A DNA stretch of 53,433 nt from positions 1-53,433 of the forward strand of contig CAYWKA010000003.1 in the NCBI GenBank assembly GCA_964459265.1, written 5' to 3'. Position numbers and translations under genes: made by a program. Positions 108 through 23,465 of this stretch are shown here, in pieces. The notes beneath the pieces were generated by a model, which was not told where the DNA came from, did not search any database, and was given only the letters and a program-made list of their open reading frames with translations. Source of the stretch: an uncultured Candidatus Saccharibacteria bacterium (GTDB lineage Bacteria; Patescibacteriota; Minisyncoccia; Minisyncoccales; Paceibacteraceae). The number at the start of each line of letters is the position of its first letter. The first letter of the stretch is position 1.

Positions 108-653
108 ATGAAAAAATTATTTTTAATTATTTTTTTATTAAGCTTATCTCTTCCTTTAACCGCCTCGGCCGGCACTTACATTGCCGTGCATAATGGTACG
201 GCTGAAACAATTTGTTACGAAGGGTTAGTGCCATGCGGCAAAGAAGTTTCTATGGGCGGCAGTTGGGAAAATGGCCAATGCGTCGGAGGCACTGCCATAG
301 ATGCACCTTGTACTTTTTGTCATTTTTTTGTCATGTTGGATGGAATTTTTGATTTTATTTTATTTCAGCTAGTCCCGCCCTTAGCCGTTTTAATGCTGGC
401 CATTGGCGGAATAATGTATATTATGGCCTATTTCAGTGAAGCCGAAACTCTGGTCGGCGGCGCAAAAGGCGGACCGAAAATGTTAAGCCAGGCAAAAAAA
501 TTAATCACTTCCGTAATACTGGGCCTGATTATAATTTATGCTGGCTGGCTCCTGGTAGATTTATTCTTTGATGTAATCGGGGTAGCTGAATGGACCGGTC
601 TAAATCAGGGTTGGTTTTCCATCCAGTGCCAAATAACCATTCCTTCTTTTTAA
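108..653 (+). CDS. Secreted TrbC/VirB2-like T4SS pilin-family protein (CPR type)
   Basis: Signal peptide MKKLFLIIFLLSLSLPLTASA, then a Cys-bearing exposed segment (LVPCG...CTFCHFF). Two hydrophobic helices follow, joined by a short polar loop (...LAIGGIMYIMAYFSEAETLVGGAKGG...LGLIIIYAGWLLV). The same two-helix module heads ORFs 16174 and 19939. Confidence 0.6.
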   Translation: MKKLFLIIFLLSLSLPLTASAGTYIAVHNGTAETICYEGLVPCGKEVSMGGSWENGQCVGGTAIDAPCTFCHFFVMLDGIFDFILFQLVPPLAVLMLAIGGIMYIMAYFSEAETLVGGAKGGPKMLSQAKKLITSVILGLIIIYAGWLLVDLFFDVIGVAEWTGLNQGWFSIQCQITIPSF

Positions 654-733: not shown

Positions 734-740
734 CAAATAT

Positions 741-9518: not shown

Positions 9519-9563
9519 CGATTGATATAAATTTCCTAATAATATACAATGGAGTAATCTATG

Positions 9564-9572
9564 TGGTAAAAT
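9564..9572 (+). promoter_or_regulatory. Extended -10 box TGGTAAAAT overlapping the first ATG of the VirB6-like gene
   Basis: TGGTAAAAT at 9564-9572 overlaps the ATG at 9571. A second in-frame ATG at 9580 lies 7 nt downstream of the box, where a leaderless start would fall. Confidence 0.4.
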
Positions 9573-12288
9573 GAAATTGATGGAAGGTAAAATTAAAAAA
9601 TTTTTTTCTAAGAAATCCGGCGGATTAGCAGCTTTTAATGCTGGCCCCGTAGCCAAGCGAAGTTTACGGCTCGGGGCTGTTTTATTTTGCGTTCTTTTAG
9701 GACTACTTTTGCCGTTTCATTTTATTCAAGCTCAAGGTGGAATTTTAGGAGCTATCATGAGTATCGGTGCTAACATCGTCACCATTTTTCTCCAGGTTAT
9801 CTTAGTTATTTCCAATATATTTATGGGGATAGCCGGTCTGATTCTAAACTGGGTTTTAAGTCCTTATTTTATGAGCTTACCCTATACTCATGGTGGAATT
9901 GTGGATGTCGGCTGGCCGATCGTTAGGGACTTTGCCAACTTATTTTTTGTTGTCGCTTTGGTTTTTATTGGTTTAGCTACCGCTCTCAGAATCAGCGAAT
10001 ATCAAGCTAAAAAAGCTCTCCCTCGATTAATTATTATTGCTCTTTTGATTAACTTTACTCCGGTTATCTGCGGACTAATTATGGATGCCACAAATATTTT
10101 GATGAACTTTTTCTTAGAAGAAGTATCTGGCTTGAAAACAATGGGAATTTTCATTATTCAGCAAGGAACAATACTTCATGATGTTTTTACGCATTTCCTT
10201 GATATTCGCTACGCTGCCGCCGCTTTAGGAAAAACCATAGTTATGATTGCTTTTGATTGGATAGGCGGCCTTATTTTTCTTATGTTTGCCCTTCTTTTTG
10301 TTTTGCGATACATAATGGTCTGGGTTTTGGTAATCGTTTCACCGATTGCCTTCCTTTCTAAAATTTTCCCAGGTGCCCAACAATATGTCTTCAGAAGCAT
10401 TTTAGGTTGGGACGAGTGGTGGCGACAGTTTATTGAATGGTCACTGCTTGGGATTACCGGAGGCTTCTTTCTTTATTTGGCTGAGCAACTAATAGTTTTA
10501 GCACCCGGTATGTTTCCTGCCGCTCCTCCTGATTTAGCTTGGGGCTGGCTTACTATCCCGGTTGTTGAGTTTATTAACAATCTTTTGCCTTACGGCGTAG
10601 TTTTAGCTTTCCTGCTGATCGGTTTTTTCACTGCCACTTCTACTTCAGCCATGGGAGCCAGTTTTGTTGTCAATTGGGCCAAGACTCAAGGTCCGGCTTT
10701 AGGCAAAGCAGCCCTCAAAGGCGGCTTGACTCCACTTAGAAAAGAAGTGCTGCCGCGATTAGAAAAAGGATTAAAAACAAAAGAAGCAGCTGGTTGGGTA
10801 TCTGGCAAATTAAGAAAGGTGCCTCTTGTCAGGCATGTGGGGCCAGTATCTGCTTTAAGAAGATACGGTGAGTGGCGAGAGGACATTGAAAAAGATATGG
10901 GTGCAATTACTGGTTCTTCATACACCATTGGGCAAGAAATAGGGGCAGGCTATTACCCTGGGAAGAAGGCAACAGCTGCATTATTGCAAATAACTAAGAG
11001 GGGGGATTCCCAAGATTATTTCAAGGGTATGAAAAAACGATATGGAATAGCTGAAGATGCCGATGATGAGATTCTTCTTGAAAATCCGAAATTCTTGAAA
11101 GAAACTGAGGATTTATTAAGAACAGCCTATCGAGCGGGATTAGGAAATGATATTACCAGAAGGGACCCAAGATTGGCAGCAGCCTTAGCTGGGAAAAAAG
11201 GAGTTGGGTTTAATTATGAAAAGGATAATTATGGCAAGGATATGACTGCAGCAACCGCCATAGCTAAAGCAACCAGAGAAGCCAGGGGCCAGCATATTAC
11301 TAACTGGGAAAAAGATGTGGTTGCCAATAAAGACGTTGTTAAAACTTTAATGAAGGACGGCGGATTAAGCGCTTTTAGACACATAGATGATAAAGTTAAA
11401 GAAGGCCGGCTGACTACTTTAGGAACAATGAAGAAAATTTGGGAAGACCATGTAGCAGATTATGCTAAATCAAAGAACAAAGCTAAATGGGATGATTTGA
11501 CTGAAGGTGAAAAGAAAGAAGCCGAAGAGAAGTTCATAAAAGAATATCCACGCTACTGGGACCCCAAAACTGGAGCAGCTTATAACCCAAGATTCCGCTC
11601 CGAAGGTTGGGTACGGAATCCTCGGGACTTATATAAAACTTTCCCGGAGCCATTAGTAGAAAAGGGCCTTGGTGTAGTACCGCCCGATTTCCGTGGGGAG
11701 GAAATACCCGAAGAGGAATTGGAAGCAATGAGACAAGCTGGCTGGGTGCCACCAAAAGTAGAATCAGCAGAAGAAAGAATGAGGGAAGAAGCAGAAAGAG
11801 AAGAAATAATCAAGAGCTGGCCCAAAGCAGAAAAAGGAATGCCTTCAAAGCTCCAAGGCTCAATAGAAGAAGGAGAAAAGTTAATTTCGGAAATTAAAGA
11901 ACAAGAAGCTACAATTAATAGTTTAGAGACAGCCATCAACGAATGGGGAGAGAACTTAGCTTCTTTAAGAGAAAGTTTAAGCAAAACTAACGAACAGATT
12001 AATTCTGGTCGATTATCTGGAGATGCCCTAACCAGGGCCAGAGAAAACCTGGCTATACTATACAAGAAGAGAAATGAGGCGGAAAGACAACGGGAAGAAA
12101 TAGAAGCTAAAGAAGCTGAAATTGAACCAGCCAGAGAAGCTGTTGAAAGCATAAAAATTCATTTATCTGAACTTTATAGAGAAGCTATTGAGCCCTTCTT
12201 AGAAGTAGAGGAAGAAAGAGAAAAGGCAGAAAAAAGAATAAAAGCAATGAAAGAAAAGGAGAAAAAAGTCAAAAAGAGTAAATTGTAA
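9571..12288 (+). CDS. TrbL/VirB6-like polytopic membrane protein with a ~500-aa charged coiled-coil C-terminal tail
   Basis: About 8-10 hydrophobic helices in the first ~400 aa (e.g. FVVALVFIGLATAL, LIIIALLINFTPVICGLIM, IMVWVLVIVSPIAFL). A Glu/Lys-rich tail with heptad-like stretches follows. It heads the T4SS-like gene string. The true start may be ATG 9580. Confidence 0.6.
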   Translation: MKLMEGKIKKFFSKKSGGLAAFNAGPVAKRSLRLGAVLFCVLLGLLLPFHFIQAQGGILGAIMSIGANIVTIFLQVILVISNIFMGIAGLILNWVLSPYFMSLPYTHGGIVDVGWPIVRDFANLFFVVALVFIGLATALRISEYQAKKALPRLIIIALLINFTPVICGLIMDATNILMNFFLEEVSGLKTMGIFIIQQGTILHDVFTHFLDIRYAAAALGKTIVMIAFDWIGGLIFLMFALLFVLRYIMVWVLVIVSPIAFLSKIFPGAQQYVFRSILGWDEWWRQFIEWSLLGITGGFFLYLAEQLIVLAPGMFPAAPPDLAWGWLTIPVVEFINNLLPYGVVLAFLLIGFFTATSTSAMGASFVVNWAKTQGPALGKAALKGGLTPLRKEVLPRLEKGLKTKEAAGWVSGKLRKVPLVRHVGPVSALRRYGEWREDIEKDMGAITGSSYTIGQEIGAGYYPGKKATAALLQITKRGDSQDYFKGMKKRYGIAEDADDEILLENPKFLKETEDLLRTAYRAGLGNDITRRDPRLAAALAGKKGVGFNYEKDNYGKDMTAATAIAKATREARGQHITNWEKDVVANKDVVKTLMKDGGLSAFRHIDDKVKEGRLTTLGTMKKIWEDHVADYAKSKNKAKWDDLTEGEKKEAEEKFIKEYPRYWDPKTGAAYNPRFRSEGWVRNPRDLYKTFPEPLVEKGLGVVPPDFRGEEIPEEELEAMRQAGWVPPKVESAEERMREEAEREEIIKSWPKAEKGMPSKLQGSIEEGEKLISEIKEQEATINSLETAINEWGENLASLRESLSKTNEQINSGRLSGDALTRARENLAILYKKRNEAERQREEIEAKEAEIEPAREAVESIKIHLSELYREAIEPFLEVEEEREKAEKRIKAMKEKEKKVKKSKL

Positions 12289-12303
12289 AATAAGTTAGAA
12301 GCT

Positions 12304-12759
12304 GTGCTAAAAGGCTACAACAGAGATCAATTATGGAAATTATATAATACTCTTCCTTCGGAACTAAAAGAGGCGCTTTTCGCAATAGAAACGGCTGACT
12401 ATATTTATGATGTTTGTGAAAAAAACGAAGTTAAAGACAAACAAATTACCGAAGTGGCCCGTTCTACGGGTAAGGTCTTGCTGGGGGTTTTACCACCAGA
12501 CGAATTCCAGGAAGATTTAGAAAAAAAGGTGGGGCTTGAAAAAGAAACAGCTAAAAAAGTAGCTCAAGAAATTAATCGTTTTATCTTTTATCCCTTGAAA
12601 GCAGTTCTGGAAAAACTTTACAAAACAGAAATTACTCCGCCCTCTAGGCCGATTACTGGAGTCGAAGAGACAACTGAAGAAGCTACCACCCCATCCAAAA
12701 AAAAAGAAGAACCTAAATCCCCGCCTAAAAAAGATGTTTATCGGGAACCTGTTGAATAA
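12304..12759 (+). CDS. Hypothetical protein (GTG start) in the T4SS-like string
   Basis: 151-aa ORF, tightly packed between neighbours, with a Pro/Lys/Glu-rich tail. I recognise no family. Confidence 0.55.
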   Translation: MLKGYNRDQLWKLYNTLPSELKEALFAIETADYIYDVCEKNEVKDKQITEVARSTGKVLLGVLPPDEFQEDLEKKVGLEKETAKKVAQEINRFIFYPLKAVLEKLYKTEITPPSRPITGVEETTEEATTPSKKKEEPKSPPKKDVYREPVE

Positions 12760-12761
12760 TT

Positions 12762-13172
12762 ATGAGATTTACTGTCCCACAATTTATTGAGCACGAGGCA
12801 AAAATAATTGGCCCTCTCACTTTCAAGCAATTTATGTTTATCGGGATAGCTGGCGCTATCTGTTTTATTCTTTACTTTACCGTCCCTTTTTCTATTTTTT
12901 TAATTGGCTGCGTGGTCTTGGGAGGAGGAGGAATCTCCCTTGCCTTTTTTAAAATTGGCGGTAGAAGTTTGCCGGTTCTTTTCGGAAATTTCTTAAAATT
13001 TTTTATCGGCCCGAAAATGTATATTTGGAAAAAAGGAGAAGCCCCAATAAAATTTTTTAAAAAAGAGGTGGTGAAGAAGGAAGAAGAAAAAGAAGATGAA
13101 CTGCCATTAAAAATTGCGGAAAAAAGTCGGTTAAAAAAACTAAGTACTCAAATTGAAACAAAAACTAAGTAA
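12762..13172 (+). CDS. PrgI-family (VirB3-like) small membrane protein
   Basis: N-terminus MRFTVPQFIEHEAKIIGPLTFKQFMFIGIAGAICFILYF plus a second helix. This is the characteristic PrgI-family start, and the gene lies directly upstream of VirB4, as in Gram-positive T4SS. Confidence 0.65.
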   Translation: MRFTVPQFIEHEAKIIGPLTFKQFMFIGIAGAICFILYFTVPFSIFLIGCVVLGGGGISLAFFKIGGRSLPVLFGNFLKFFIGPKMYIWKKGEAPIKFFKKEVVKKEEEKEDELPLKIAEKSRLKKLSTQIETKTK

Positions 13173-13175
13173 AAT

Positions 13176-13817
13176 ATGGCTCAGGCCTCTACTCAACAAT
13201 TTTTAGAAATTGACCAGATAAGAGAAGGAGTAATTGTTCTGAAAAATAAAGCCCTCAGAGGAGTACTAATGGTTTCTTCTCTTAATTTTGCTTTAAAGTC
13301 GGAAGATGAGCAAAAGGCTATTATTTATCAGTTCCAGAATTTTTTGAATTCTTTAGATTTTTCTTTAGAAATTGCGGTCCAGTCCCGAAAATTAAATATC
13401 ACGGGTTACCTTGATAAATTAAAAGAGCTGGAAACCCAACAAGAAAATGAACTTCTTAAGGTGCAAACTACTGAATACCAAAAATTTGTTAAAGAGCTGA
13501 TTGCCGGCGGGGCGATTATGTCTAAAAACTTTTTTGTAGTTGTCCCTTTCACTTTAGTAGAAATCCCAGGTATGAAACAGGCTAAAGGTTTTTTTGGGGG
13601 AAGGCCTGGTACTACTTTTAATGAGGACCGGTTTCATCGGGCCAAATCTCAGCTCTGGCAAAGAATGGAGTTTGTGGCTCTGGGATTAAGAAGGTGTGGT
13701 CTCCAATGTGTTCCTTTAAATACTTCTGAATTAATTGAGCTTTTCTGGAGCTTGTATCATCCTGAAGAAGCTGAAGTCGGTTATTATCCAGAAATCCCTT
13801 CAGAATTAATTCATTAA
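13176..13817 (+). CDS. VirB4/PrgJ N-terminal-domain-like protein (first piece of a split VirB4)
   Basis: QQFLEIDQIREGVIVLKNKALRGVLMVSSLNFALKSEDEQKAIIYQFQNFLNSL resembles the N-terminal segment of Gram-positive VirB4-type ATPases. The ORF ends 1 nt before the ATPase ORF. Confidence 0.55.
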   Translation: MAQASTQQFLEIDQIREGVIVLKNKALRGVLMVSSLNFALKSEDEQKAIIYQFQNFLNSLDFSLEIAVQSRKLNITGYLDKLKELETQQENELLKVQTTEYQKFVKELIAGGAIMSKNFFVVVPFTLVEIPGMKQAKGFFGGRPGTTFNEDRFHRAKSQLWQRMEFVALGLRRCGLQCVPLNTSELIELFWSLYHPEEAEVGYYPEIPSELIH

Positions 13818-13818
13818 A

Positions 13819-15609
13819 ATGAAAATAAAATTACCTTTTTTAAAAAAAGAAAGAGAAATACCGGAAAAAATTTTTGCCATCCCGGCCATTGAAGCAAAAG
13901 ACATTATTGCTCCCTCTTCTATTTCTTTAGCGGCTGACCACTTAAAATTAGGCAAGAGATTGGCTAGATCTTTCTTTATTTTTTCTTACCCTAGATACCT
14001 AAGCACGGCTTGGTTTTCTCCGGTTATTAACTTAGACACTCCTATGGATATTGGTCTACACGTCCATCCAGTAGAAACCGGAACGGTTTTAAAACAATTA
14101 AGGAAGAAAGTAACTGAAGTTCAAGCTGAAATCATAGAAAGGGAGGAAAAAGGTTTCATCCGTGATCCCGCCCTGGAAATCGCTTACCAAGACTTAGAAG
14201 CCTTAAGAGACAGATTGCAGACTGCCCAAGAAAGGATGTTCAAGTTTGGTCTTTATTTAACTGTCTACGCTAATAAAACCCGGGAATTAGAAGAAATTGA
14301 AAACACTTTAAGGTCAATTTTAGAATCAAGATTAATTTATATAAAACCTGCTCTTTATCAACAGAAGGAAGGATTCAATTGTACTTGTCCTTATGGCTTG
14401 GACCAGCTTCAAGTCCACACCTCAATGAATACCGACCCTTTGTCTTCTATTTTTCCTTTCGTTTCTTTTGATTTAAGTTCTAATGAGGGAATTTTATACG
14501 GTATAAATCAACACAACAATTCTTTAATTTTATTTGACAGATTCTCTTTGGAGAATGCCAATAGCGTTGTTTTCGCCAAAGCCGGTAGCGGTAAATCTTA
14601 TGCGGTAAAATTAGAAATTTTACGTTCTTTAATGCTGGGGGTAGACACTATTGTCATTGATCCTGAAAACGAATATAAATTTTTGGCCGACGCCGTTGGC
14701 GGCTCTTTCTTTAATATTTCTCTGGCCAGTCCCAACCATATCAATCCTTTTGATTTACCAACTCCTAGACCAGACGAAAAACCGGCTGATGTTTTAAGAA
14801 CAAACGTCATTAATCTGGTAGGGCTACTGAGAATTATGTTGGGCGGCCTTACCCCGGAAGAAGATGCCATTATCGATAGAGCTTTAACCGAAACTTACGG
14901 AGCCCGAGACATTACTCCCGAAACTGACCCTCAAACATGGGAAGAGAAAATTCCTTTAATGTCTGATTTTGAAGCGGTTTTAGAAGGGCTGGAAGGAGCA
15001 GAATCTTTAGTCAGAAGGGTAAGAAAGTTTACCAAAGGAACTTTCGCAGAATTTTTCAACCAACCCACCAATATCTCCATGGACAAACCTTTTGTATCTT
15101 TCGGCATCAGAGACATGGAAGACGAACTACGGCCTATAGCTATGTTTATTGTTATGAGATACATCTGGAACAAAGTTAGGTCGGAATTAAAAAAAAGAAT
15201 TTTAGTGGTGGATGAGGCCTGGTGGATAATGCAGACCTCAGACGGCGCTTCTTTTCTATACGGAATAGCTAAACGGGCCAGGAAATACTGGTTGGGGGTA
15301 ACTACCATCACTCAAGATGTGATTGATTTTATGAAGTCAGATTACGGCAAACCAATTATTACCAATTCCTCTCTACAGCTTTTGATGAAACAGAGTCCGG
15401 CTACCATGGATGTGGTCCAAAAAACTTTTAATTTGACTGAAGAAGAAAAGTATCTTTTATTAGAAGCTGAAGTCGGTGAAGGAATGTTCTTCGCTGGCCA
15501 GAAACATGTGGCTATAAAGGTGGTGGCTTCTTACACTGAAGACCAAATTATCACTACCGCCCCGGAAGAAGTTTTAAGAATTAAAAAAGCTAAAGGATTA
15601 CCAGTTTAA
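13819..15609 (+). CDS. VirB4-family T4SS ATPase (C-terminal two-thirds)
   Basis: Walker A FAKAGSGKSYAVK and Walker B RILVVDEAWWIM. The preceding APSSISLAADHLKLGKRLARSFFIFSYPRYL block is typical of VirB4/TraE/PrgJ. Confidence 0.8.
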   Translation: MKIKLPFLKKEREIPEKIFAIPAIEAKDIIAPSSISLAADHLKLGKRLARSFFIFSYPRYLSTAWFSPVINLDTPMDIGLHVHPVETGTVLKQLRKKVTEVQAEIIEREEKGFIRDPALEIAYQDLEALRDRLQTAQERMFKFGLYLTVYANKTRELEEIENTLRSILESRLIYIKPALYQQKEGFNCTCPYGLDQLQVHTSMNTDPLSSIFPFVSFDLSSNEGILYGINQHNNSLILFDRFSLENANSVVFAKAGSGKSYAVKLEILRSLMLGVDTIVIDPENEYKFLADAVGGSFFNISLASPNHINPFDLPTPRPDEKPADVLRTNVINLVGLLRIMLGGLTPEEDAIIDRALTETYGARDITPETDPQTWEEKIPLMSDFEAVLEGLEGAESLVRRVRKFTKGTFAEFFNQPTNISMDKPFVSFGIRDMEDELRPIAMFIVMRYIWNKVRSELKKRILVVDEAWWIMQTSDGASFLYGIAKRARKYWLGVTTITQDVIDFMKSDYGKPIITNSSLQLLMKQSPATMDVVQKTFNLTEEEKYLLLEAEVGEGMFFAGQKHVAIKVVASYTEDQIITTAPEEVLRIKKAKGLPV

Positions 15610-15618
15610 TAAAAATCT

Positions 15619-16158
15619 ATGGCTTTACCAGTAATTGCGGCTGGCGCTGCTAAGGGATTAGCAGCAGCTGGCAGGGGAGTAAAAGCAGCTAAAGGAGTTC
15701 AGAAGGCAGGGGAAATAGGAAAAAGAGTGGGCAGGGCAGTTCAAAAAAGACCTCTCCCGGGAGCACCGACACCAGGAACTGAAGAAAAGGCGCCAGATGA
15801 AGCAACTAATAAATTTTCTGCCCTGACTCGTCCTGGAGTGATTATGCTGATTATCGCGATTTTTATTGATATTTTTGGCGTAATTTGTCTTCTCTTGGAT
15901 ATTTTTTTTGGAGTTGGGGAAATTCCTTCCTGGATTTCTGACGGCGCCGGTATTGTTTTTATTGGCGGATGGATATGGTTTAGGTCAGGCAGAGTGGAAG
16001 TACCGGAAAGAGCAAAACAAAGAACAGAAAAAGGATTAAAGAAGCTTTTCCGGGGAAAATATAAAAAATTTTTGACCCCTATTTTGGGAGAAGTCGCTCC
16101 TTTTGTTGGCGCTTTTCCTTTCTGGAGTTTAGCTGCTTATTACGAGCTAACAAGTTAA
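15619..16158 (+). CDS. Hypothetical membrane protein of the T4SS-like string
   Basis: Ala/Gly/Lys-rich N-terminus followed by 3-4 hydrophobic helices. No family recognised. Confidence 0.55.
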   Translation: MALPVIAAGAAKGLAAAGRGVKAAKGVQKAGEIGKRVGRAVQKRPLPGAPTPGTEEKAPDEATNKFSALTRPGVIMLIIAIFIDIFGVICLLLDIFFGVGEIPSWISDGAGIVFIGGWIWFRSGRVEVPERAKQRTEKGLKKLFRGKYKKFLTPILGEVAPFVGAFPFWSLAAYYELTS

Positions 16159-16173
16159 ATGAGAAATTAAGAA

Positions 16174-18642
16174 ATGCTGAAAAACAGCCAAGTCAAATTA
16201 TTAGTTTTATTTTTGCTCCTTTTTCTTTTTTTAGGAGCATCTTTTATTTTAGCCCAAAAACCTTTAGAGGTAACTTATCCAGAACTTCCCGGAGTTAAAA
16301 CCCCCACTACCACCAAAGAGGCCCTGCCCGATTACATAAGGTATGTTTTTCATTTGGGTTTATTTTTGGCCGGCCTTTTGGCTTTCGGCTCTTTTGTCTA
16401 TGGCGGCTTCCGCTATTTAACTTCAGGTGGCTCTCCTGCCGTCCAAAAGGATGCTGTTTCTCAAATTACGTCCGGCTTTTTGGGGTTAGCTATTTTAATT
16501 TTTACCTTCGTTCTTCTTAATATGATAAATCCTCAATTAACCGCCTTTAATGTTTCTTTGCCACACGTACCCTTGAGCAATTTAGTGGTTAGTTTGCCTA
16601 AAATTGGCGCTACCAATTACTTGGAAATTCCCTTGGGAGGTTTAATTGAAAATCTCTGGGGGAGGCGAAGCCCCACCTATCCTTCGGGATTTAAGCCGAT
16701 TGACTGTTACGATTTTGACACAGACGGGATTAATCCTAGTGGTGATGCTGTTGGTCTTCTCACCAACCATGACCGTTTGGACTGCATCAAGGAACTTTCT
16801 GCTGCTATTAAGGTAAAAGCGGAAAAATTAAAAGAGCCGGTAGAAGAATTAAGCCGGTACTATACCTGCGACAACTGCTGTGAAGATTGCTGCAATAATG
16901 TTTGTTCAAACTGGGTAACTTGCGCTGATATTTGTGATGAAGGAGGAGTCTGGCCTTGGTGGCAATGGGAAAATTGCGAAGGGACTTGTTGCCAAGGCAC
17001 CCAAAATGAGGGCTGCTGGGGGAGTTGCGGGCCTTATGATTGTTGCGAAGGATTAGGAATGGACGGCTGGAAGAATTTTTGTCCGGGGCTTTGTTGTGAA
17101 TACTTTCAGGAATGTAAGTGCGAAGAATGCCTGGGCAGTATTTGTCGTTATCCTGAAGACAAGAAGACAATCTGTAATTATACTGATTTAATTATTCAAG
17201 ATTTAATTGAGCAAATTAAAGAGGCCCTGATTGAGTTTCAGGTCAAAATGGGGTTTTTCCCTTTGACTGAAAAGATGAGAAAGTCTGATAATCTTGACCT
17301 GTTATTGTCAGTTGGCAACACTAAAACTTTAATCAAAAATCTTTTGCTCTACCAAGAGCCGGGTTACAGCCAAATAGATAAAGACAAACTGAAAAATATC
17401 TTAAAAATTAAAGAAGTAATGACTTATCTTATTAACGAGTGGCCATACCGCGCACTGCTTCTTGACAACCAAAACTTAGTCAAGACAATGGCTAGAATTT
17501 TAGGTCTTTTGGAAAACGAAGTGGCCATTAACGAAATTGCCTGGATGGGAACAATAGCCGATGAAAACCAAGAATGGTTAGAATTGTATAACAATACTAA
17601 CGGCGGAATTTCGCTTGATGGCTGGCAGCTAAAAGCGGCTGACGGCAGTCCCGAGATTCCTCTCTCCGGCCAAATTCCCGCCCAGGGTTTTTATCTTTTA
17701 GAGAACGATGAATCGGCTACTAATTTACCAGCTGGCTCAATTTTTAGCGGAAATTTAAATAATGACGGTGAAATCTTGGAACTTTATGACCAGTTTGGCA
17801 ATCTGGTGGAAAGAGTTAATTGCCAGACCGGCTGGTTTGCCGGCGAAAAAAACCCGGCAACCTCAATGGAAAGAATAAATCCTCAGGGAAGAGGTTCAGA
17901 TTACGAAAACTGGCTGAATAATTTATCGAGCGATGTTAAAGAAGAGCAGAAAAAAGATTTTATTAACGGAGCAGACCAGGATGGAAATCCAATTTACGGT
18001 ACTCCCAAAGAACCCAACAGTAACGGGCTGAGAATCGCTTCTTATCCCTCCCTTGAACTTTTAGCGTATGAAATCAGCGCAAAAATAATTAGCGAGGAAG
18101 AAACAAGGGAAAAACTAATTTTGTTTTTAAGAAAAGATGAGAATCTGGAAAAAATAATGAAGGGAAACGAAGAGTTTTTAGGTGATGTTTTGATGGGCGA
18201 CGACGACAGACTAAAAAGATTGCTAAAAGAAAGAGAAGTTTTAAAAATTTTATTTGAGGATGAAGGCAATCTTAATACAATTTTAGCTGATAGCCATATT
18301 GAAGAGCTCTTCCGCCAACTTTTAAATATGGAAGAGCCAGAAAAGGATGCGGCCTGGCAGGATTTAATTGCTAATAAATTAACCGAAGTAGTAACCAATT
18401 CGAAAATCATCAGCGATTTTGAAAAAGATTTATCTTGGGTGGTGGAAGCCGGAGACATAATGCAAGAATGCGCCGAAGACCCTATTAGCATTGATCAAGC
18501 CAGAGTCCCTGAGTTTATTTCCGGCATAGTAATAGAAAAGGTCCCCGAATGGGAAGAGATCGAAACCGGCCTTAAACTTCCGGGCGAAACTGAGACCAGC
18601 CATGATCCAGCTATTTTCTATTGTCATAAACTTTTATGGTAA
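16174..18642 (+). CDS. Pilin-module fusion protein: VirB2-like N-terminal module + cysteine-dense block + lamin-tail domain (LTD)
   Basis: Signal peptide, then the pilin module (LEVTYPELPGVKTPTT...GGFRYLTSGGSPAVQKDAVSQITSGFLG...NMINPQL). About 25 Cys fall in ~150 aa (YYTCDNCCEDCCNNVCSNW...). The LTD signature is INEIAWMGTIADENQEWLELYNNTNGGISLDGWQLKAADG...GEILELYD. Confidence 0.7.
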   Translation: MLKNSQVKLLVLFLLLFLFLGASFILAQKPLEVTYPELPGVKTPTTTKEALPDYIRYVFHLGLFLAGLLAFGSFVYGGFRYLTSGGSPAVQKDAVSQITSGFLGLAILIFTFVLLNMINPQLTAFNVSLPHVPLSNLVVSLPKIGATNYLEIPLGGLIENLWGRRSPTYPSGFKPIDCYDFDTDGINPSGDAVGLLTNHDRLDCIKELSAAIKVKAEKLKEPVEELSRYYTCDNCCEDCCNNVCSNWVTCADICDEGGVWPWWQWENCEGTCCQGTQNEGCWGSCGPYDCCEGLGMDGWKNFCPGLCCEYFQECKCEECLGSICRYPEDKKTICNYTDLIIQDLIEQIKEALIEFQVKMGFFPLTEKMRKSDNLDLLLSVGNTKTLIKNLLLYQEPGYSQIDKDKLKNILKIKEVMTYLINEWPYRALLLDNQNLVKTMARILGLLENEVAINEIAWMGTIADENQEWLELYNNTNGGISLDGWQLKAADGSPEIPLSGQIPAQGFYLLENDESATNLPAGSIFSGNLNNDGEILELYDQFGNLVERVNCQTGWFAGEKNPATSMERINPQGRGSDYENWLNNLSSDVKEEQKKDFINGADQDGNPIYGTPKEPNSNGLRIASYPSLELLAYEISAKIISEEETREKLILFLRKDENLEKIMKGNEEFLGDVLMGDDDRLKRLLKEREVLKILFEDEGNLNTILADSHIEELFRQLLNMEEPEKDAAWQDLIANKLTEVVTNSKIISDFEKDLSWVVEAGDIMQECAEDPISIDQARVPEFISGIVIEKVPEWEEIETGLKLPGETETSHDPAIFYCHKLLW

Positions 18643-19934
18643 AGTTTAAAAAACAAATCGCCACAATTCTTATTCTGGCTTTTTCTCTTTCTTTAGTTCC
18701 TGATTTTTTATACAATGGAGAAAGAGAAGAGGTTGCCGCCGCAATGAGCTGCCCTTATCCGGATTGTGAGGTAGTAGAAAAAGAAGGACAAACTTATTGT
18801 ACTAATTGCCCAATTGATTGTCAGTTCGGAACAGAAATAGTTACTAATAAATCCTGTCTTCCTTTAGAAGGAACCGGAGAATGGCTTTGCGGAAAAGAAA
18901 TCCCGATTGGAGAAGTAATTGACAGAAGCGCGATTTTGGCTTCCAAAATGCTGGCCGAATTTAGCGGCATGATTGAAAATGGTCAAATAATGGTAGAAAA
19001 AACCGAAGAGATACTTCACGGTAATTCAGAAAAGGGAATCCCGGCCATTGCTGATTGGGAATGCGGAAATATATGCGCTACCAGATGTTATAAATATTTT
19101 CAGATTCCTGATCTTCTTGAACCTCCTGGTCCTGATTGGGAGCTAATTGAAGGTCCGCCGGGTCTATGCGCCAGCGGCCCTCAACCGCCTAGTATTATTG
19201 GCGCTAAAACTGACTGCCAAGAAGACGTTAGCCGATGCGAAACTTGCGCTCAATTCTTAGCTAATGAAAGTTATTGCTGGGAAACCACCTTTGCTCCTGA
19301 CCTTCTTTTCCCAGCAGATACCGTAACCTGTAAATACTGTCCTCTAAGTTGCCAGACAAAATGTTATGTTTTTCGTTGCGGGGCATATAGAGGACGACCG
19401 GGATGCTATAACTATTTTTTCCGACCAGTCATTGATGGCTATGACTACATTGAAAACGCTCAAGAAGGACTGAAAAACGATATTGATGAAAAGTATTTTG
19501 ACGAAGGAGAATTAAAGGATTTGCCAGAAAATTTTAAGTTCAAAAAGTCGTATATCTTAGAGCAGCTTGATTTTTCTCGCTGCGAACTGGCTCAATGCTG
19601 GATACCAGCTGATGAATATCAAAAGGTAATGGAGGGCGAATTGGCCGGGAAACATCTTTTAAGCTGCAGAACCGTCTCGGATGCGGACCTTTTAGAAGAT
19701 GACCAGCTTCTCTGTTTATCTTTTCAAATTGTCAACGAATGGGAGAAAATCAAAGAACTTTGGGGAGAAATGGAAGAAGCGCCTTGGTGGCGGAAACCTT
19801 TAATTTTTTTACAGATAGTTTGGGAAACAATCTTATCCGCAGGAAAATTTCTGTGGGGATTGATAAAAGAATGGTTTAACGTAGGCAAAGAAGAAGGATG
19901 CTACCCAAACAATTATTATTGTTGTTATTTCTAA
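18636..19934 (+). CDS. Secreted cysteine-rich protein (about 28 Cys), translationally coupled to the preceding gene
   Basis: The ATG overlaps the upstream stop (ATGGTAA). N-terminal hydrophobic signal ATILILAFSLSLV, Cys scattered throughout, C-terminal amphipathic stretch, and the ending CYPNNYYCCYF. Confidence 0.65.
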   Translation: MVKFKKQIATILILAFSLSLVPDFLYNGEREEVAAAMSCPYPDCEVVEKEGQTYCTNCPIDCQFGTEIVTNKSCLPLEGTGEWLCGKEIPIGEVIDRSAILASKMLAEFSGMIENGQIMVEKTEEILHGNSEKGIPAIADWECGNICATRCYKYFQIPDLLEPPGPDWELIEGPPGLCASGPQPPSIIGAKTDCQEDVSRCETCAQFLANESYCWETTFAPDLLFPADTVTCKYCPLSCQTKCYVFRCGAYRGRPGCYNYFFRPVIDGYDYIENAQEGLKNDIDEKYFDEGELKDLPENFKFKKSYILEQLDFSRCELAQCWIPADEYQKVMEGELAGKHLLSCRTVSDADLLEDDQLLCLSFQIVNEWEKIKELWGEMEEAPWWRKPLIFLQIVWETILSAGKFLWGLIKEWFNVGKEEGCYPNNYYCCYF

Positions 19935-19938
19935 AACA

Positions 19939-21390
19939 ATGAGAAAAGCGTTGTTAATATTTCTTCTTTCTTCAGTTTTTATAGCTGGTTTTTGCCTGGC
20001 AGCGGAGAGGGGATTAGAGATTGAATATCCGTCTCTGCCCGGGGTAGAAACACCAACGACCGTTAAAACTGCTCTGCCTGATTTTATCAGATACTTTTTT
20101 ACTTTTTCAATAATAATCGCTGGCGTTTTAGCTTTTGGGGCAATAGTCCTCGGCGGAATACGTTATTTAACTTCAGCAGGGGCGGCGGCGGCGATGAGTG
20201 ACGCTAAAGACCAAATTACTTCCGGCTTCCTGGGGGTAATTATTCTCCTTTCTTCTTTTTTAATTTTAAACACTATCAACCCTCAACTTATCCTTCCTGA
20301 AAAACCGCCGCTTACCCCGACTGAAAGCGGAGTCAGAATTTACTCAAACACTGACAACTGTGGAGAAACTGCGATTGACGAAGATAAAGAAATCAATTCA
20401 ATGAAAGTTTTTCAAAATCTCCCAGTATTTAAAAAAGAGAGGGAAGGGGAAATCGTTCTTGACTGGGGAAGCGATGGCGAATACCAAATTGAATCAGTTG
20501 AATTTCTTTGTGGCCCGGAAGAACTAACCGTAGAAATTTTTCCTGAGGAAGATTTTAGTGGAACTCCTTACTTACTTGATTATGAAGAATCAGAGTATAT
20601 AGAAGGAATTACTCACTGTGAAGATTTCAGCAGCAGTACTGACCACCGCTCAATTAAATTGGATTGGCATATTCCTGGAGTTTATCTTTATGCCGAAGAT
20701 GACTGTTCTGACGAACCTAAAATTTATCAAGCCAGCTCAGATACTTTGCCCGATTTTGATAACAGAACCCAAGCGATAAAATTAATCGGCGGGGACTATG
20801 ACGCTTCCTTAGGAAAATATCAGATTAGATACGGTGTAGCTTTGCACGAACATGAAAATCATCAAGGAAGAGCCGCCATATTTGATTTTGACACCGTTGT
20901 TAACGCTGTTGGCTATGGCCAATGTTATCCGATTAGTAATATCACAAGCACCGGCCAGGTTAATATGACGTTTTATGTTTCTTCAATTACGGTTTATCAA
21001 GAACCAAGATATAAAGAAGACGGCACAGAACAAATAATTGGTGCCGGGGTAAGATTTTACGAGAATAAAAACTATGCCATGCATGATGAAGGGGCAGATT
21101 GTGAATCAAAAAAGCCACCACAAATTTTTGGTGATGGCCGATCAGTCAGCAATGTAGATCCTTTAACTTACTGTGCTGACGGTTGCAGTTCGGGATGCAA
21201 TGATAAGTTTACCTCAATGGAAATGGATGGTCACTATATAGTCTTACTGTTTGAGCATGAAGATTATCAAGGCAGGTGTCAGGTTGAAACCGTCAGTAAC
21301 CCCGACTTTAGACCACACCCTATTGGTCAATGTGGCTGGCTGGGGAGGACTGATTGCTTAACTTCTTTTATCGTCAGGGCTAGAAAATAA
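19939..21390 (+). CDS. Pilin-module fusion protein with a C-terminal domain of Greek-key (beta/gamma-crystallin-like) repeats
   Basis: The N-terminal ~120 aa are paralogous to ORF 16174 (LEIEYPSLPGVETPTT...GGIRYLTSAGAAAAMSDAKDQITSGFLG...NTINPQL). C-terminal repeats fit (Y/F)xxxx(Y/F)xG...S, e.g. LLFEHEDYQGRCQVE...CLTSFIV. Confidence 0.6.
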   Translation: MRKALLIFLLSSVFIAGFCLAAERGLEIEYPSLPGVETPTTVKTALPDFIRYFFTFSIIIAGVLAFGAIVLGGIRYLTSAGAAAAMSDAKDQITSGFLGVIILLSSFLILNTINPQLILPEKPPLTPTESGVRIYSNTDNCGETAIDEDKEINSMKVFQNLPVFKKEREGEIVLDWGSDGEYQIESVEFLCGPEELTVEIFPEEDFSGTPYLLDYEESEYIEGITHCEDFSSSTDHRSIKLDWHIPGVYLYAEDDCSDEPKIYQASSDTLPDFDNRTQAIKLIGGDYDASLGKYQIRYGVALHEHENHQGRAAIFDFDTVVNAVGYGQCYPISNITSTGQVNMTFYVSSITVYQEPRYKEDGTEQIIGAGVRFYENKNYAMHDEGADCESKKPPQIFGDGRSVSNVDPLTYCADGCSSGCNDKFTSMEMDGHYIVLLFEHEDYQGRCQVETVSNPDFRPHPIGQCGWLGRTDCLTSFIVRARK

Positions 21391-21392
21391 CT

Positions 21393-23437: not shown

Positions 23438-23465
23438 AATAAAGGTGTTTAATTGTTTCGCTACT

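What the first reader, a model, noticed from the sequence alone, without database searches (positions are those of the whole stretch)
9571..21390. Minimal Gram-positive-type T4SS-like locus with no relaxase or coupling protein
Nine co-directional ORFs are packed with gaps of about 15 nt or less, or with overlaps. They are: a polytopic TrbL/VirB6-like protein with a ~500-aa charged coiled-coil tail; a 151-aa unknown; a PrgI/VirB3-like protein; VirB4 in two pieces (GSGKS, VVDEAW); a 179-aa membrane protein; and three secreted Cys-rich proteins, two headed by a VirB2-like pilin module. A free-standing pilin paralog sits at 108-653. No VirD4-type coupling ATPase, relaxase, VirB8/PrgL, VirB11 or integrase is visible anywhere in the window, so a conjugation role is doubtful. 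In a CPR-type episymbiont this could instead be a surface filament or injection apparatus for host attachment or for DNA or substrate exchange. The accessory subunits (151-aa, 179-aa and the three Cys-rich proteins) have no family I can name.
Basis: partly seen in the sequence, partly recalled or inferred. Interest (0 to 1): 0.8.

Follow-up and report, generated by a model that had tools for sequence, protein, structure and literature searches.

The report
Chromosomal Patescibacteria-type type IV secretion locus
This is a real nine-gene type IV secretion system of an ultra-small Paceibacteria (CPR) bacterium with no DNA-transfer genes nearby, but this kind of system was already described for these bacteria in 2023-2025, so it is a typical new example whose only less-described feature is its unusually large pilin-fusion surface proteins.

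Summary
Nine co-directional ORFs (9571-21390) are separated by 1-15 nt or overlap by 7 nt.

Tools identify:
- an extended VirB6-like protein;
- a PrgI/VirB3 protein (above the Pfam cut-off);
- a TrsD-like VirB4 N-terminal piece plus a VirB4 ATPase (above the NCBIfam CD1110 cut-off);
- two proteins with VirB2-like (PF18895) N-terminal hairpins, plus a third, weaker pilin paralog at 108-653.

No relaxase, coupling protein, VirB8, VirB11 or integrase was found among the window ORFs of at least 100 aa that were scanned against Pfam. The locus lies between rsmA and jag-yidC-rnpA-dnaA. That position and the core gene order recur in most of 80 related Paceibacteria genomes.

Wang et al. 2023 (Cell), Quiñonero-Coronel et al. 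2025 (Microb Genom) and a 2025 FEMS review describe this Patescibacteria T4SS. They report the separate TrsD, the VirB2 arrays, the missing relaxase and the dnaA proximity, and Tn-seq showed it essential in a Saccharibacterium.

Added here:
- The "pilins" in this clade are mostly 250-2100-aa fusions of an N-terminal pilin hairpin to Cys-rich ectodomains: βγ-crystallin fold in the 483-aa protein, a lamin-tail domain in the 822-aa protein.
- The 432-aa Cys-rich protein belongs to a narrow family whose core is fused to pilin modules in other genomes.

Verdict: new member of a known kind, moderate interest.

The parts
9571..12288 (+). Extended VirB6-like polytopic membrane protein (905 aa): a VirB6-like core of about 400 aa followed by a hydrophilic tail of about 465 aa that is not conserved.
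   Evidence: The window protein itself has no Pfam hit. Six of 32 locus homologs hit PF04610 TrbL and 2 hit TrbL_4. Many database homologs carry PF19590 TrbL_3 or PF04610. The AF2 model of residues 1-440 has pLDDT 81.4. Its top PDB fold hits are TrwI/VirB6 of R388 (8rt9_F, 8rtd_L, 7o3v; E 0.018-0.13, prob 0.99-1.0, TM by target 0.44-0.49). At least 7 hydrophobic helices; the tail is 38% charged. Only the N-terminal ~37% aligns in relatives.
12304..12759 (+). 151-aa soluble accessory protein of unknown family: a helical N-terminal domain, a K/E/P-rich linker, and a conserved C-terminal D-x-Y-R-E-P-[IVL]-E peptide.
   Evidence: Found just upstream of PrgI in 50 of 80 related loci. The alignment shows invariant Y146 and E148 and near-invariant D144 and R147. 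Within the loci the motif occurs only in this family. No consistent Pfam hit among 40 members. No TM segment.
12762..13172 (+). PrgI/VirB3-like small membrane protein (136 aa).
   Evidence: PF12666 PrgI, 29.1 bits against a gathering cut-off of 27, E 1.5e-6. Present in 72 of 80 loci directly upstream of the TrsD-like gene.
13176..13817 (+). TrsD-like protein (213 aa), equivalent to a free-standing VirB4 N-terminal domain.
   Evidence: Matches the N-terminal parts of VirB4 models: NF045975 positions 102-214 (E 3.2e-10), NF045971 positions 2-107 (E 1.5e-6) and NF041427 TrsD (E 1.2e-3), all below their curated cut-offs. Present in 77 of 80 loci at a median 66% identity. Homologous 213-aa genes carry PF26593 TraC-like. 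It is in a different reading frame from virB4, with 1 nt between the two genes.
13819..15609 (+). VirB4 ATPase (596 aa), MPF-FATA/CD1110 type, with Walker A (GSGKS) and Walker B (VVDEAW) motifs.
   Evidence: NF045971 conju_CD1110, 368.9 bits against a cut-off of 325, covering model positions 183-734 of 752. PF19044, PF12846 and PF01935 also match. The closest solved structure is the Thermoanaerobacter VirB4 C-terminal domain 4AG5, E 3.7e-45. It is 70-89% identical to homologs in 80 Paceibacteria-type genomes.
15619..16158 (+). 179-aa small membrane protein of unknown family, located directly after virB4.
   Evidence: A homolog follows virB4 in 33 of 80 loci. The alignment has invariant W118 and P167 and conserved G116, P161 and W169. 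No meaningful Pfam hit among 30 members. One strong hydrophobic segment at residues 74-92.
16174..18642 (+). Pilin-headed surface protein (822 aa): signal peptide, VirB2-like hairpin (~29-125), a region holding 25 of its 28 cysteines (residues 178-334), a lamin-tail domain (448-549) and an acidic C-terminal region.
   Evidence: PF18895, 19.7 bits (below the 26.6 cut-off), and PF00932 LTD, 40.1 bits (above 34.3). The pilin-module profile scores 125.7 bits, E 8e-39. It is 56% identical to the 483-aa protein over residues 8-122 only. Full-length homologs occupy the same position in L005, L009, L085 and L086.
18636..19934 (+). Secreted or anchored Cys-rich protein (432 aa, 28 Cys) of a narrow unnamed family. 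Its start overlaps the upstream gene by 7 nt.
   Evidence: 51 homolog clusters, all about 360-460 aa and none with a Pfam hit. Alignment A6 has many invariant Cys and a C-terminal EEGCYPxNYYCC motif. Only 48 representatives at E<=1e-3 among 1.84 billion proteins. No sequence match in the PDB. Its core is fused behind PF18895 modules in P0305, P0310, P0313 and P0326, and behind a GH5-like domain in P0329. The position between the two pilin-headed genes is conserved.
19939..21390 (+). Pilin-headed surface protein (483 aa): signal peptide, VirB2-like helical hairpin (48-112) and a β-rich ectodomain containing βγ-crystallin-fold domains.
   Evidence: PF18895, 23.7 bits as the whole protein and 25.6 bits as the isolated module (cut-off 26.6). 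Most of the 120 listed homologs carry PF18895 and several carry PF00030 Crystall. AF2 pLDDT 83.0 with helices 2-22, 48-78 and 83-112 followed by β strands. The Foldseek PDB top hits are γ-crystallins, E 1e-6, prob 1.0, TM by target 0.65-0.72.
108..653 (+). Free-standing, divergent pilin-like paralog (181 aa), lying between tRNA-Arg and tRNA-Lys.
   Evidence: PF18895, 22.4 bits (below cut-off), E 1.3e-4. Pilin-module profile 19.9 bits, E 8e-6. tRNA genes at 26-98 and 661-734. This assignment is weaker than for the other two pilin modules.
7519..8550 (-). Membrane-anchored LysM-LysM-CHAP peptidoglycan hydrolase. It is a candidate VirB1-like cell-wall hydrolase for the system; the association is unproven.
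   Evidence: PF01476 LysM (two copies) and PF05257 CHAP. One TM-like segment at 21-39. It holds the same position upstream of rsmA in 26 loci. In L085 the same position holds a LysM plus Peptidase_M23 protein. PMC12102498 reports that VirB1 homologs associate with virB4 in Paceibacteria specifically.

Best explanation
The locus is the chromosomal, vertically inherited type IV secretion system typical of Patescibacteria. It derives from the monoderm MPF-FATA conjugation machinery and has been repurposed away from conjugation.

Shown by the analyses here:
- The core consists of an extended VirB6-like membrane protein, PrgI/VirB3, a free-standing VirB4 N-terminal domain (TrsD-like) and the VirB4 ATPase.
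- It is accompanied by proteins whose N-termini are VirB2-like pilin hairpins.
- It is fixed next to the replication origin, between housekeeping genes.
- No DNA-processing partner (relaxase or coupling protein) is present in the window.

Inferred from the R388 structural model and from Saccharibacteria genetics:
- VirB4 hexamers, docked to the membrane through PrgI and TrsD, power extraction of the pilin hairpins from the membrane and their assembly on a VirB6 platform.
- A pilin's C-terminus faces outward, so the hairpin would carry the fused Cys-rich ectodomains (βγ-crystallin domains, or Cys-rich region plus lamin-tail domain) to the cell surface or to the tip of a short filament.
- There, together with the co-translated 432-aa Cys-rich partner, they would contact the envelope of the host (basibiont) cell.
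- The apparatus would then serve attachment and exchange of proteins or other molecules with the host, not plasmid transfer.
For: Family assignments:
- VirB4 is above the curated cut-off and PrgI is above the Pfam cut-off.
- The TrsD-like piece covers the missing N-terminus of the VirB4 model.
- VirB6 is supported by family Pfam hits and by the best PDB fold hits, TrwI/VirB6.
- 35 of 39 pilin modules hit PF18895, and one hits TrbC/VirB2 PF04956.

Context:
- rsmA lies upstream. jag, yidC and rnpA lie downstream, followed by dnaA at 23352 and dnaN.
- The same order recurs in most of 80 related genomes and in L085 and L086.
- VirB4 (median 74.5% identity) and TrsD (66.4%) are at least as conserved as DnaA (66.1%) in the same genomes, which fits strong purifying selection.
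- GC content across the locus is unremarkable, 0.36-0.42.
- No relaxase, T4CP or integrase in the window.

Ectodomains:
- βγ-crystallin fold and LTD.
- Cys enrichment in 84 pilin-fusion ectodomains: median 3.6% against 1.26% background.
- The core of the 432-aa family is fused to pilin modules in other genomes.

Literature:
- The homologous Saccharibacteria cluster SEML1_0006-0019 is essential for epibiotic growth and has no recognizable coupling protein or relaxase among its subunits (PMC10633639).
- Phylum-wide survey (PMC12102498).
- Review (PMC12857230).
Against: - No experiment exists for any Paceibacteria T4SS. Essentiality and host-interaction role are extrapolated from one Saccharibacterium.
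- The window's own pilin modules and VirB6 fall below the Pfam cut-offs. They are assigned through their families and predicted folds.
- The VirB6 fold match is marginal in E-value (0.018) and in TM-score (0.44-0.49).
- A 350-700-aa domain on every subunit would probably prevent packing into a VirB2-type helical filament. The 'pilins' may therefore not form a pilus at all and may be only membrane-anchored surface proteins.
- A VirD4-like protein could be encoded elsewhere in the genome. PMC12102498 finds such homologs, far from virB4, in most Patescibacteria genomes.
- No VirB8-like component was found.
Confidence: 0.72

Rival explanations
1. DNA-uptake machine. The T4SS works in reverse, like Helicobacter ComB or the archaeal Ced system. 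It would capture and import environmental or host DNA as a nucleotide or gene source, with the lamin-tail domain of the 822-aa protein contributing to DNA capture.
For: ComB- and Ced-type systems also lack a relaxase (established knowledge), and CedB and CedD appear among the weaker VirB4 model hits. An LTD occurs both in the 822-aa protein and in a ComEA-like HHH_3+LTD protein at 29526-30449, next to a PilB-type ATPase. From my own knowledge, LTDs accompany some extracellular bacterial nucleases. Patescibacteria lack nucleotide biosynthesis (PMC10633639).
Against: In S. epibionticum, competence depends on comEC and type IV pili, and a comEC deletion abolishes transformation without affecting viability. 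The T4SS remains essential there, so its essential role is not DNA uptake (PMC12857230). DNA binding by the LTD was not tested here. The other ectodomains (βγ-crystallin fold, the 432-aa family) have no link to DNA.
Confidence: 0.12
2. Ordinary conjugation apparatus. The relaxase, oriT and coupling protein lie elsewhere in the genome or on an element outside the 53-kb window.
For: VirB4 is of the MPF-FATA conjugative lineage. Coupling-protein genes are often distant from virB4, and VirD4 homologs exist in most Patescibacteria genomes (PMC12102498).
Against: The locus is embedded between rsmA and jag-yidC-rnpA-dnaA in dozens of genomes, with no integrase or compositional break. Only 109 relaxases were found in 3,035 Patescibacteria genomes, against 2,474 VirB4 proteins (PMC12102498). 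The t4cp homolog is not essential in S. epibionticum although the T4SS is. Monoderm conjugation systems lack VirB2 pilins.
Confidence: 0.05
3. Decoupled parts. The VirB3/TrsD/VirB4/VirB6 core is a T4SS remnant, but the pilin-headed Cys-rich proteins are autonomous membrane-anchored adhesins or wall proteins. They would use the two-helix hairpin only as an anchor, be exported by Sec, and not be handled by VirB4.
For: The fusion proteins have Sec-type signal peptides. Their ectodomains are too large for canonical pilus packing (inference). Pilin-headed genes are present in 65 of 80 loci, and their position varies, upstream or downstream of the core and sometimes on the opposite strand.
Against: They stay linked to virB4 within about 10 kb in those 65 loci. 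Their spacing suggests translational coupling with the core operon. In S. epibionticum the pilin array is as essential as the T4SS core. Canonical VirB2 also enters the membrane through Sec before VirB4 acts on it (established knowledge).
Confidence: 0.11

Closest known systems
Patescibacteria-clade T4SS, as in Southlakia epibionticum ML1 SEML1_0006-0019 (Wang et al. 2023, PMC10633639) and the phylum-wide survey (Quiñonero-Coronel et al. 2025, PMC12102498)
   Same: The core is the same: extended VirB6-like protein(s) with long hydrophilic tails, PrgI/VirB3, a separate TrsD-like gene directly upstream of virB4, an MPF-FATA-type VirB4 and PF18895 VirB2-like pilin genes in the cluster. No relaxase or T4CP is nearby. 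The location is chromosomal, near dnaA, rnpA, ksgA and rpmH.
   Different: - The Saccharibacteria pilins are six small proteins of 103-185 aa. Here two of the three pilin modules head 822- and 483-aa Cys-rich proteins, and across 80 related loci the median pilin-module ORF is 450 aa.
- There is no lysozyme or peptidase gene inside the operon. A LysM-CHAP gene lies 1 kb upstream on the other strand.
- There is no NTF2-like (VirB8-fold) gene like SEML1_0012.
- The 151-, 179- and 432-aa genes were not compared with the Saccharibacteria cluster, so it is not known whether they have counterparts there.
Monoderm conjugative T4SS of class MPF-FATA (pCF10 Prg/Pcf, pGO1 Trs, CTn2 CD1110 family, pIP501 Tra)
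   Same: VirB4 passes the CD1110-family model cut-off. PrgI is present. There is a TrsD-like protein as in pGO1. A VirB6/PrgH-type polytopic protein is present. A CHAP-type hydrolase lies nearby. There are no outer-membrane core components.
   Different: There is no relaxase, no VirD4/TcpA coupling protein, no PrgL/TraM (VirB8-like) protein, no surface adhesin of the PrgB type and no mobile-element context. It has VirB2-like pilin modules, which monoderm conjugation systems lack.
R388 Trw / Agrobacterium VirB (MPF-T) systems, the structural reference
   Same: The VirB6 fold is the best PDB match for the 905-aa protein. The VirB3-VirB4-VirB6 inner-membrane logic is the same. The pilin modules are two-helix hairpins preceded by a signal peptide.
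   Different: There are no VirB5, VirB7, VirB9, VirB10 or VirB11 proteins. VirB4 is split. The pilin modules carry large C-terminal ectodomains, which might functionally replace a VirB5-type tip adhesin (inference only).
T4SS-derived DNA-import systems (Helicobacter ComB, archaeal Ced)
   Same: These are also T4SS-related machines without a relaxase that are used for something other than donor-driven conjugation. CedB and CedD are weak VirB4-model hits.
   Different: There are no ComB7-10-type components. VirB4 is far closer to the CD1110 family than to Ced (368.9 against 43.7 bits). In the one tested Patescibacterium, competence runs through ComEC and type IV pili, not the T4SS.

Membership tests
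Patescibacteria-clade T4SS (PMC12102498 / PMC10633639) | VirB4 ATPase of MPF-FATA ancestry | tested here: met
   NF045971 conju_CD1110, 368.9 bits against a cut-off of 325. The closest solved structure is a Firmicute VirB4, 4AG5, E 3.7e-45. Walker A and B motifs are visible in the translation.
Patescibacteria-clade T4SS (PMC12102498 / PMC10633639) | VirB4 falls in the monophyletic Patescibacteria VirB4 clade | not tested
   No tree with reference MPF classes was built. As a proxy, the 80 best genome matches (70-89% identity) are almost all Paceibacteria/Parcubacteria-type or other CPR MAGs, some labelled only 'bacterium' and one labelled Pseudomonadota. The paper places 2,425 of 2,474 Patescibacteria VirB4 proteins in that clade.
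Patescibacteria-clade T4SS (PMC12102498 / PMC10633639) | Separate TrsD-like (VirB4 N-terminal-domain) gene next to virB4 | tested here: met
   The 213-aa ORF matches the N-terminal parts of VirB4 models and NF041427 TrsD, all below their curated cut-offs. It is present in 77 of 80 loci. Homologs carry PF26593 TraC-like.
Patescibacteria-clade T4SS (PMC12102498 / PMC10633639) | PrgI/VirB3 homolog next to virB4 | tested here: met
   PF12666, 29.1 bits against a cut-off of 27. Present in 72 of 80 loci.
Patescibacteria-clade T4SS (PMC12102498 / PMC10633639) | VirB6/TrbL-type polytopic protein, often extended | tested here: met
   The window protein itself is below Pfam reporting. Its family carries PF19590 or PF04610. 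The AF2 model (pLDDT 81.4) has TrwI/VirB6 as its top PDB fold matches, although with marginal E-values of 0.018 or weaker.
Patescibacteria-clade T4SS (PMC12102498 / PMC10633639) | VirB2-like (PF18895) pilin genes near virB4 | tested here: met
   The window modules score 19.7-25.6 bits against a cut-off of 26.6. At family level 35 of 39 modules hit PF18895, best E 6.9e-12. AF2 predicts the signal peptide and the two-helix hairpin.
Patescibacteria-clade T4SS (PMC12102498 / PMC10633639) | No relaxase or coupling protein near virB4; chromosomal position near dnaA, rnpA and ksgA | tested here: met
   Pfam scans of the window ORFs found neither. rsmA/ksgA is directly upstream. jag, yidC, rnpA, dnaA and dnaN are directly downstream.
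Patescibacteria-clade T4SS (PMC12102498 / PMC10633639) | Required for epibiotic growth on a host | not testable with these tools
   This is known only from Tn-seq in S. epibionticum.
Conjugative T4SS / integrative conjugative element | Relaxase (MOB) and oriT | tested here: not met
   No relaxase domain was found in any scanned ORF of the 53-kb window. The rest of the genome could not be reached, because the longest contigs retrieved end at or near the window ends.
Conjugative T4SS / integrative conjugative element | VirD4/TcpA-type coupling ATPase | tested here: not met
   None in the window (same calls). One elsewhere in the genome cannot be excluded.
Conjugative T4SS / integrative conjugative element | Mobile-element context (integrase, compositional island, variable insertion site) | tested here: not met
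   No integrase was found. GC content is 0.36-0.42, like its neighbours. The position between housekeeping genes is fixed across most of 80 genomes.
Conjugative T4SS / integrative conjugative element | VirB8-like (PrgL/TraM, NTF2 fold) channel subunit | tested here: inconclusive
   There is no sequence-level hit.
Canonical VirB2/TrbC pilin | Signal peptide plus two hydrophobic helices joined by a short loop | tested here: met
   AF2 predicts helices 2-22, 48-78 and 83-112 in the 483-aa protein. Hydrophobic segments are listed. PF18895 is matched at family level and one module hits PF04956.
Canonical VirB2/TrbC pilin | Small mature subunit (about 70-120 aa) able to pack into a helical pilus | tested here: not met
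   The 822- and 483-aa proteins carry ectodomains of about 700 and 370 aa beyond the hairpin. Only the 181-aa paralog at 108-653 is of near-pilin size. Polymerisation itself is not testable here.
βγ-crystallin superfamily (ectodomain of the 483-aa protein) | Paired Greek-key βγ-crystallin fold | tested here: met
   Foldseek top 50 hits are γ/β-crystallins, E down to 1e-6, prob 1.0, TM by target 0.65-0.72 for the γ-crystallin hits. Sub-threshold Pfam hits to PF00030, PF08964 and PF03995. Some homologs carry PF00030. Ca2+-binding motifs were not examined.

The most novel reading that the evidence does not exclude
In Paceibacteria the VirB2-like hairpin may have become a general N-terminal 'hand-over' module rather than a filament subunit. 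It would couple a changing repertoire of disulfide-rich ectodomains to the T4SS, so that the machine's main substrates are its own pilin-fusion proteins. The ectodomains seen include the βγ-crystallin fold, the lamin-tail domain and the domain of the 432-aa family, whose core is also found fused to a GH5-like glycosidase. The fusions would be displayed at, or pushed into, the host envelope as interchangeable host-specificity determinants. The evidence does not exclude this reading, and it is not discussed in the papers I read.
Probability: 0.3. Interest if true: 0.65.

Novelty: new member of a known kind. Interest (0 to 1): 0.35.

Why it matters
The Patescibacteria T4SS is the first T4SS reported as essential for the bacterium that carries it, and its substrate and direction of transport are unknown (PMC12857230). 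This locus adds no new kind of system.

It does document the Paceibacteria form in detail. The core (VirB6, a 151-aa protein, PrgI, TrsD, VirB4) is as conserved as DnaA. Attached to it is a fast-changing set of pilin-headed, cysteine-rich surface proteins.

If those fusions are the parts that touch the host, they are the obvious candidates for host-range determinants in a class that makes up a large share of groundwater and sediment microbial diversity and has almost no cultured members. They also give concrete targets (βγ-crystallin, LTD and 432-aa-family domains) for binding and localisation experiments.

Tried and rejected
- Sequence-profile searches of the PDB gave only chance-level matches for the VirB6-like family and the pilin modules, and no match for the 432-aa family. 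Only the fold comparison was informative.
- Pfam scans of 40 homologs of the 151-aa protein and 30 homologs of the 179-aa protein gave only scattered single hits at E>1e-4. I treat these as noise. The Phage_holin_3_6 hit (E 0.063) was rejected for the same reason.
- I tested whether the 432-aa protein is related to the Cys-rich region of the 822-aa protein. BLASTP found nothing better than E 0.48, so they are not detectably related.
- A frameshift or assembly artefact as the cause of the TrsD/VirB4 split was rejected. The split is present in 77 of 80 related loci, and distant relatives have separate 213-aa and ~595-aa gene calls.
- An ICE or genomic-island origin was rejected on context and composition.
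- Attempts to extend beyond the window to look for a distant T4CP or relaxase failed. The longest contigs retrieved end within about 1 kb of the window ends, and one end protein is not on record.
- Promoter and terminator scans were uninformative: 32 promoter-like sites against 26.5±4.8 in shuffles, and 24 terminator-like sites against 15.5±4.3. One promoter-like site, at 9522-9550, falls in the rsmA-to-first-gene gap.
- A literature search for crystallin-pilin fusions in CPR found one paper containing all three terms; I did not read it.

Full report
**Observation.** They are packed with gaps of 15, 2, 3, 1, 9, 15, -7 and 4 nt. They are not chance ORFs. Each has homologs in related genomes. 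Identical 822-, 432- and 483-aa gene calls in the same order appear on the four independently assembled metagenome contigs shown, out of 24 read that carry the identical 483-aa protein. Hydrophobicity, charge and cysteine counts match the description, with one correction: only the last ~185 residues of the 905-aa protein look coiled-coil (weak SMC-like match at 731-902).

**Core components.**
- *PrgI/VirB3.* The 136-aa ORF passes the Pfam PrgI cut-off (29.1 against 27 bits).
- *VirB4.* The 596-aa ORF passes the NCBIfam cut-off for the CD1110 family of VirB4-like conjugal ATPases (368.9 against 325 bits), matching model positions 183-734. Its closest solved relative is the Thermoanaerobacter VirB4 C-terminal domain (4AG5, E 3.7e-45).
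- *TrsD-like piece.* The 213-aa ORF matches the missing N-terminal positions of the same VirB4 models, and weakly matches TrsD. "VirB4 in two pieces" is therefore literally correct, but it is not damage. The separate N-terminal gene is present in 77 of 80 related loci. Distant relatives have separate gene calls that carry PF26593 TraC-like. It is the TrsD homolog reported in about 2,200 Patescibacteria genomes (PMC12102498).
- *VirB6-like protein.* The 905-aa protein has no Pfam hit of its own. However, 6 of 32 locus homologs hit TrbL/VirB6, and many database homologs carry PF19590 TrbL_3 or PF04610. An AlphaFold2 model of residues 1-440 (pLDDT 81.4) has R388 TrwI/VirB6 chains as its best matches in the whole PDB (prob 0.99-1.0, E 0.018-0.13, TM by target 0.44-0.49). 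I accept it as an "extended VirB6". Its hydrophilic tail is not conserved: only the N-terminal ~37% aligns in relatives.

**Pilin-headed proteins.** A profile built from the N-terminal 100 residues of the 483-aa family finds exactly three ORFs in the window: 19939-21390, 16174-18642 and, weakly, 108-653.
- The first two share 56% identity over ~115 N-terminal residues and nothing beyond that.
- The window modules fall just below the PF18895 cut-off, but 35 of 39 related modules hit PF18895 and one hits TrbC/VirB2 PF04956.
- The AlphaFold2 model of the 483-aa protein (pLDDT 83.0) shows a signal helix, a two-helix hairpin (48-78, 83-112) and a β-rich ectodomain. The ectodomain's best PDB matches are γ-crystallins (E 1e-6, TM by target 0.65-0.72).
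- The 822-aa protein carries a region holding 25 of its 28 cysteines (residues 178-334) and a lamin-tail domain above the Pfam cut-off.
- The 432-aa protein between them belongs to a narrow family: 51 clusters, and 48 representatives at E<=1e-3 among 1.84 billion proteins. It has no Pfam or PDB sequence match and many invariant cysteines.
- Its core domain recurs in other genomes fused behind PF18895 pilin modules, and once behind a GH5-like glycosidase. This links it to the same extracellular repertoire.
- The three-gene unit, including the 7-nt overlap, is conserved at 40-46% identity.

**Other accessory genes.**
- The 151-aa protein sits just upstream of PrgI in 50 of 80 loci. It ends in a conserved D-x-Y-R-E-P-[IVL]-E peptide after a low-complexity linker. 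This looks like a tethered docking peptide, but its partner is unknown.
- The 179-aa membrane protein follows virB4 in 33 of 80 loci.
- Neither protein has a named family.
- A LysM-LysM-CHAP hydrolase at 7519-8550 on the minus strand keeps its place upstream of rsmA in 26 loci. In one relative it is replaced by a LysM plus Peptidase_M23 protein. It is a candidate VirB1-like wall hydrolase. The published survey notes that VirB1 homologs associate with virB4 specifically in Paceibacteria, but I could not show a functional link.

**Context.**
- The locus lies between rsmA/ksgA and jag-yidC-rnpA, with dnaA and dnaN immediately beyond.
- Its GC content is unremarkable.
- The window ORFs scanned against Pfam encode housekeeping, type IV pilus/competence, sensory or unassigned proteins. 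None is a relaxase, VirD4/TcpA, VirB8, VirB11 or integrase.
- The best genome matches are Candidatus Paceibacter normanii (89%), then Nealsonbacteria, Wildermuthbacteria and other Parcubacteria/Paceibacteria MAGs.
- Across these genomes the order rsmA, VirB6-like, 151-aa, PrgI, TrsD, VirB4, [179-aa], [pilin fusions], jag-yidC-rnpA-dnaA is largely kept.
- VirB4 (median 74.5% identity) and TrsD (66.4%) are at least as conserved as DnaA (66.1%) in the same genomes. One caveat applies: the genomes were chosen by VirB4 similarity.

**What is known.** All of this matches published descriptions.
- Wang et al. 2023 (PMC10633639) found by Tn-seq that the S. epibionticum cluster SEML1_0006-0019 is essential for epibiotic growth. 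The cluster comprises a lysozyme, VirB4, a TrsD-like protein, PrgI, two extended VirB6-like proteins and six small PF18895 pilins. It resembles Gram-positive conjugative systems and has no recognizable coupling protein or relaxase.
- Quiñonero-Coronel et al. 2025 (PMC12102498) surveyed 3,035 genomes. They report a monophyletic Patescibacteria VirB4 clade nested in MPF-FATA, widespread TrsD, PrgI/VirB3, VirB6 and VirB2 arrays, almost no relaxases, and proximity to dnaA, dnaN, rnpA, ksgA and rpmH in Paceibacteria.
- The 2025 FEMS review (PMC12857230) repeats this and speculates about a conduit for exchange with the host.

**What may be less described.** In the 80 related loci, 92 complete ORFs carry the pilin module.
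- Their median length is 450 aa. Only 8 are 250 aa or shorter.
- In 84 of them the module ends within the first ~160 residues and at least 100 aa follow it. Those extensions are cysteine-rich: median 3.6% against 1.26% for all ORFs.
- The profile was built from a fusion family, so small divergent pilins are under-counted.
- The Saccharibacteria pilins are 103-185 aa.
- The papers I read do not discuss such fusions: term searches found no mention of pilin fusions or lamin-tail domains in the survey paper, and a literature search for crystallin-pilin fusions in CPR returned one paper that I did not read.

**Mechanism.**
- *Shown:* the composition, the context, the conservation and the predicted folds.
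- *Inferred from the R388 model and Saccharibacteria genetics:* VirB4 hexamers, held at the membrane by PrgI and TrsD, extract the pilin hairpins from the membrane and load them onto a VirB6 platform. Both ends of a VirB2-type hairpin face outward, so the fused ectodomains would end up on the surface or at the tip of a short structure. With the 432-aa partner, they would bind the host envelope.
- *Open problem:* a 370-700-aa ectodomain on every subunit is hard to reconcile with a canonical helical pilus. Tip-only or sparse incorporation, or a non-filamentous cap on VirB6 analogous to VirB5, seems more likely. The 181-aa paralog at 108-653 is the only candidate for a conventional subunit.
- *Rivals:* DNA import (probability 0.12), true conjugation with distant partners (0.05), and pilin-headed proteins that are independent of the T4SS (0.11).

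**Verdict.** This is a genuine, well-conserved Paceibacteria example of the known Patescibacteria T4SS: a new member of a known kind. Interest is moderate (0.35). It rests mainly on the pilin-ectodomain fusion architecture and on the open question of what this essential machine transports.

Noticed in passing
window 12304-12759 (C-terminus, residues 144-151): The 151-aa protein family ends in a conserved D-x-Y-R-E-P-[IVL]-E peptide after a K/E/P-rich linker. In the 80 related loci only this family carries the motif (26 ORFs found by regular expression). It looks like a tethered docking peptide with an unknown partner.
   Followed up: partly
P0305, P0310, P0313, P0326, P0329 (relatives of window 18636-19934): The core of the 432-aa Cys-rich family (profile positions ~80-335) occurs in other genomes as the C-terminal part of 605-727-aa proteins whose N-terminus is a PF18895 pilin module. 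It occurs once behind a GH5-like glycosidase domain.
   Followed up: partly
window 7519-8550 (-) and L085:1-1021 (-): The cell-wall hydrolase upstream of rsmA keeps its position but swaps its catalytic domain between relatives: LysM plus CHAP here, LysM plus Peptidase_M23 in L085.
   Followed up: no
window 29526-30449 (-) and 30621-31916 (-): A ComEA-like protein that combines a helix-hairpin-helix motif with a lamin-tail domain sits next to a PilB/T2SSE-type ATPase. The same lamin-tail domain type occurs in the 822-aa pilin-headed protein.
   Followed up: no
window 36831-42270: Three tandem ABC_sub_bind (PF04392) paralogs lie in a patch of higher GC (about 0.45 against about 0.38). They are followed by a dCache-HAMP sensor and two receiver-only response regulators, and a PAS histidine kinase lies just upstream at 34813-36624. 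This is an unusually rich sensory cluster for a reduced genome.
   Followed up: no
window 26-734: The divergent 181-aa pilin-like ORF (108-653) fills almost exactly the space between tRNA-Arg(TCG) at 26-98 and tRNA-Lys(CTT) at 661-734.
   Followed up: no
window 13176-15609 compared with 23352-24815, across loci L001-L080: VirB4 (median 74.5% amino-acid identity) and TrsD (66.4%) are at least as conserved as DnaA (66.1%), and more conserved than YidC (59%) or RsmA (57%), in the same set of genomes. The set was chosen by VirB4 similarity, so the comparison is biased.
   Followed up: partly
window 21388-21395: The last T4SS gene and the convergent jag/R3H gene end 2 nt apart, which leaves no room for a terminator between them.
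   Followed up: no
window 51922-53388 (-), 33526-34802 (+), 43026-43700 (+), 48700-49086 (+): Several ORFs have no Pfam hit at all: 488 aa with a TTG start (called as 466 aa on another contig), 207 aa, 221 aa, 224 aa and 128 aa.
   Followed up: no
window 48198-50577: An archease gene (48198-48605) and an RtcB RNA ligase gene (49132-50577) lie close together, separated by a 128-aa ORF with no Pfam hit. These are RNA repair or tRNA ligation genes.
   Followed up: no
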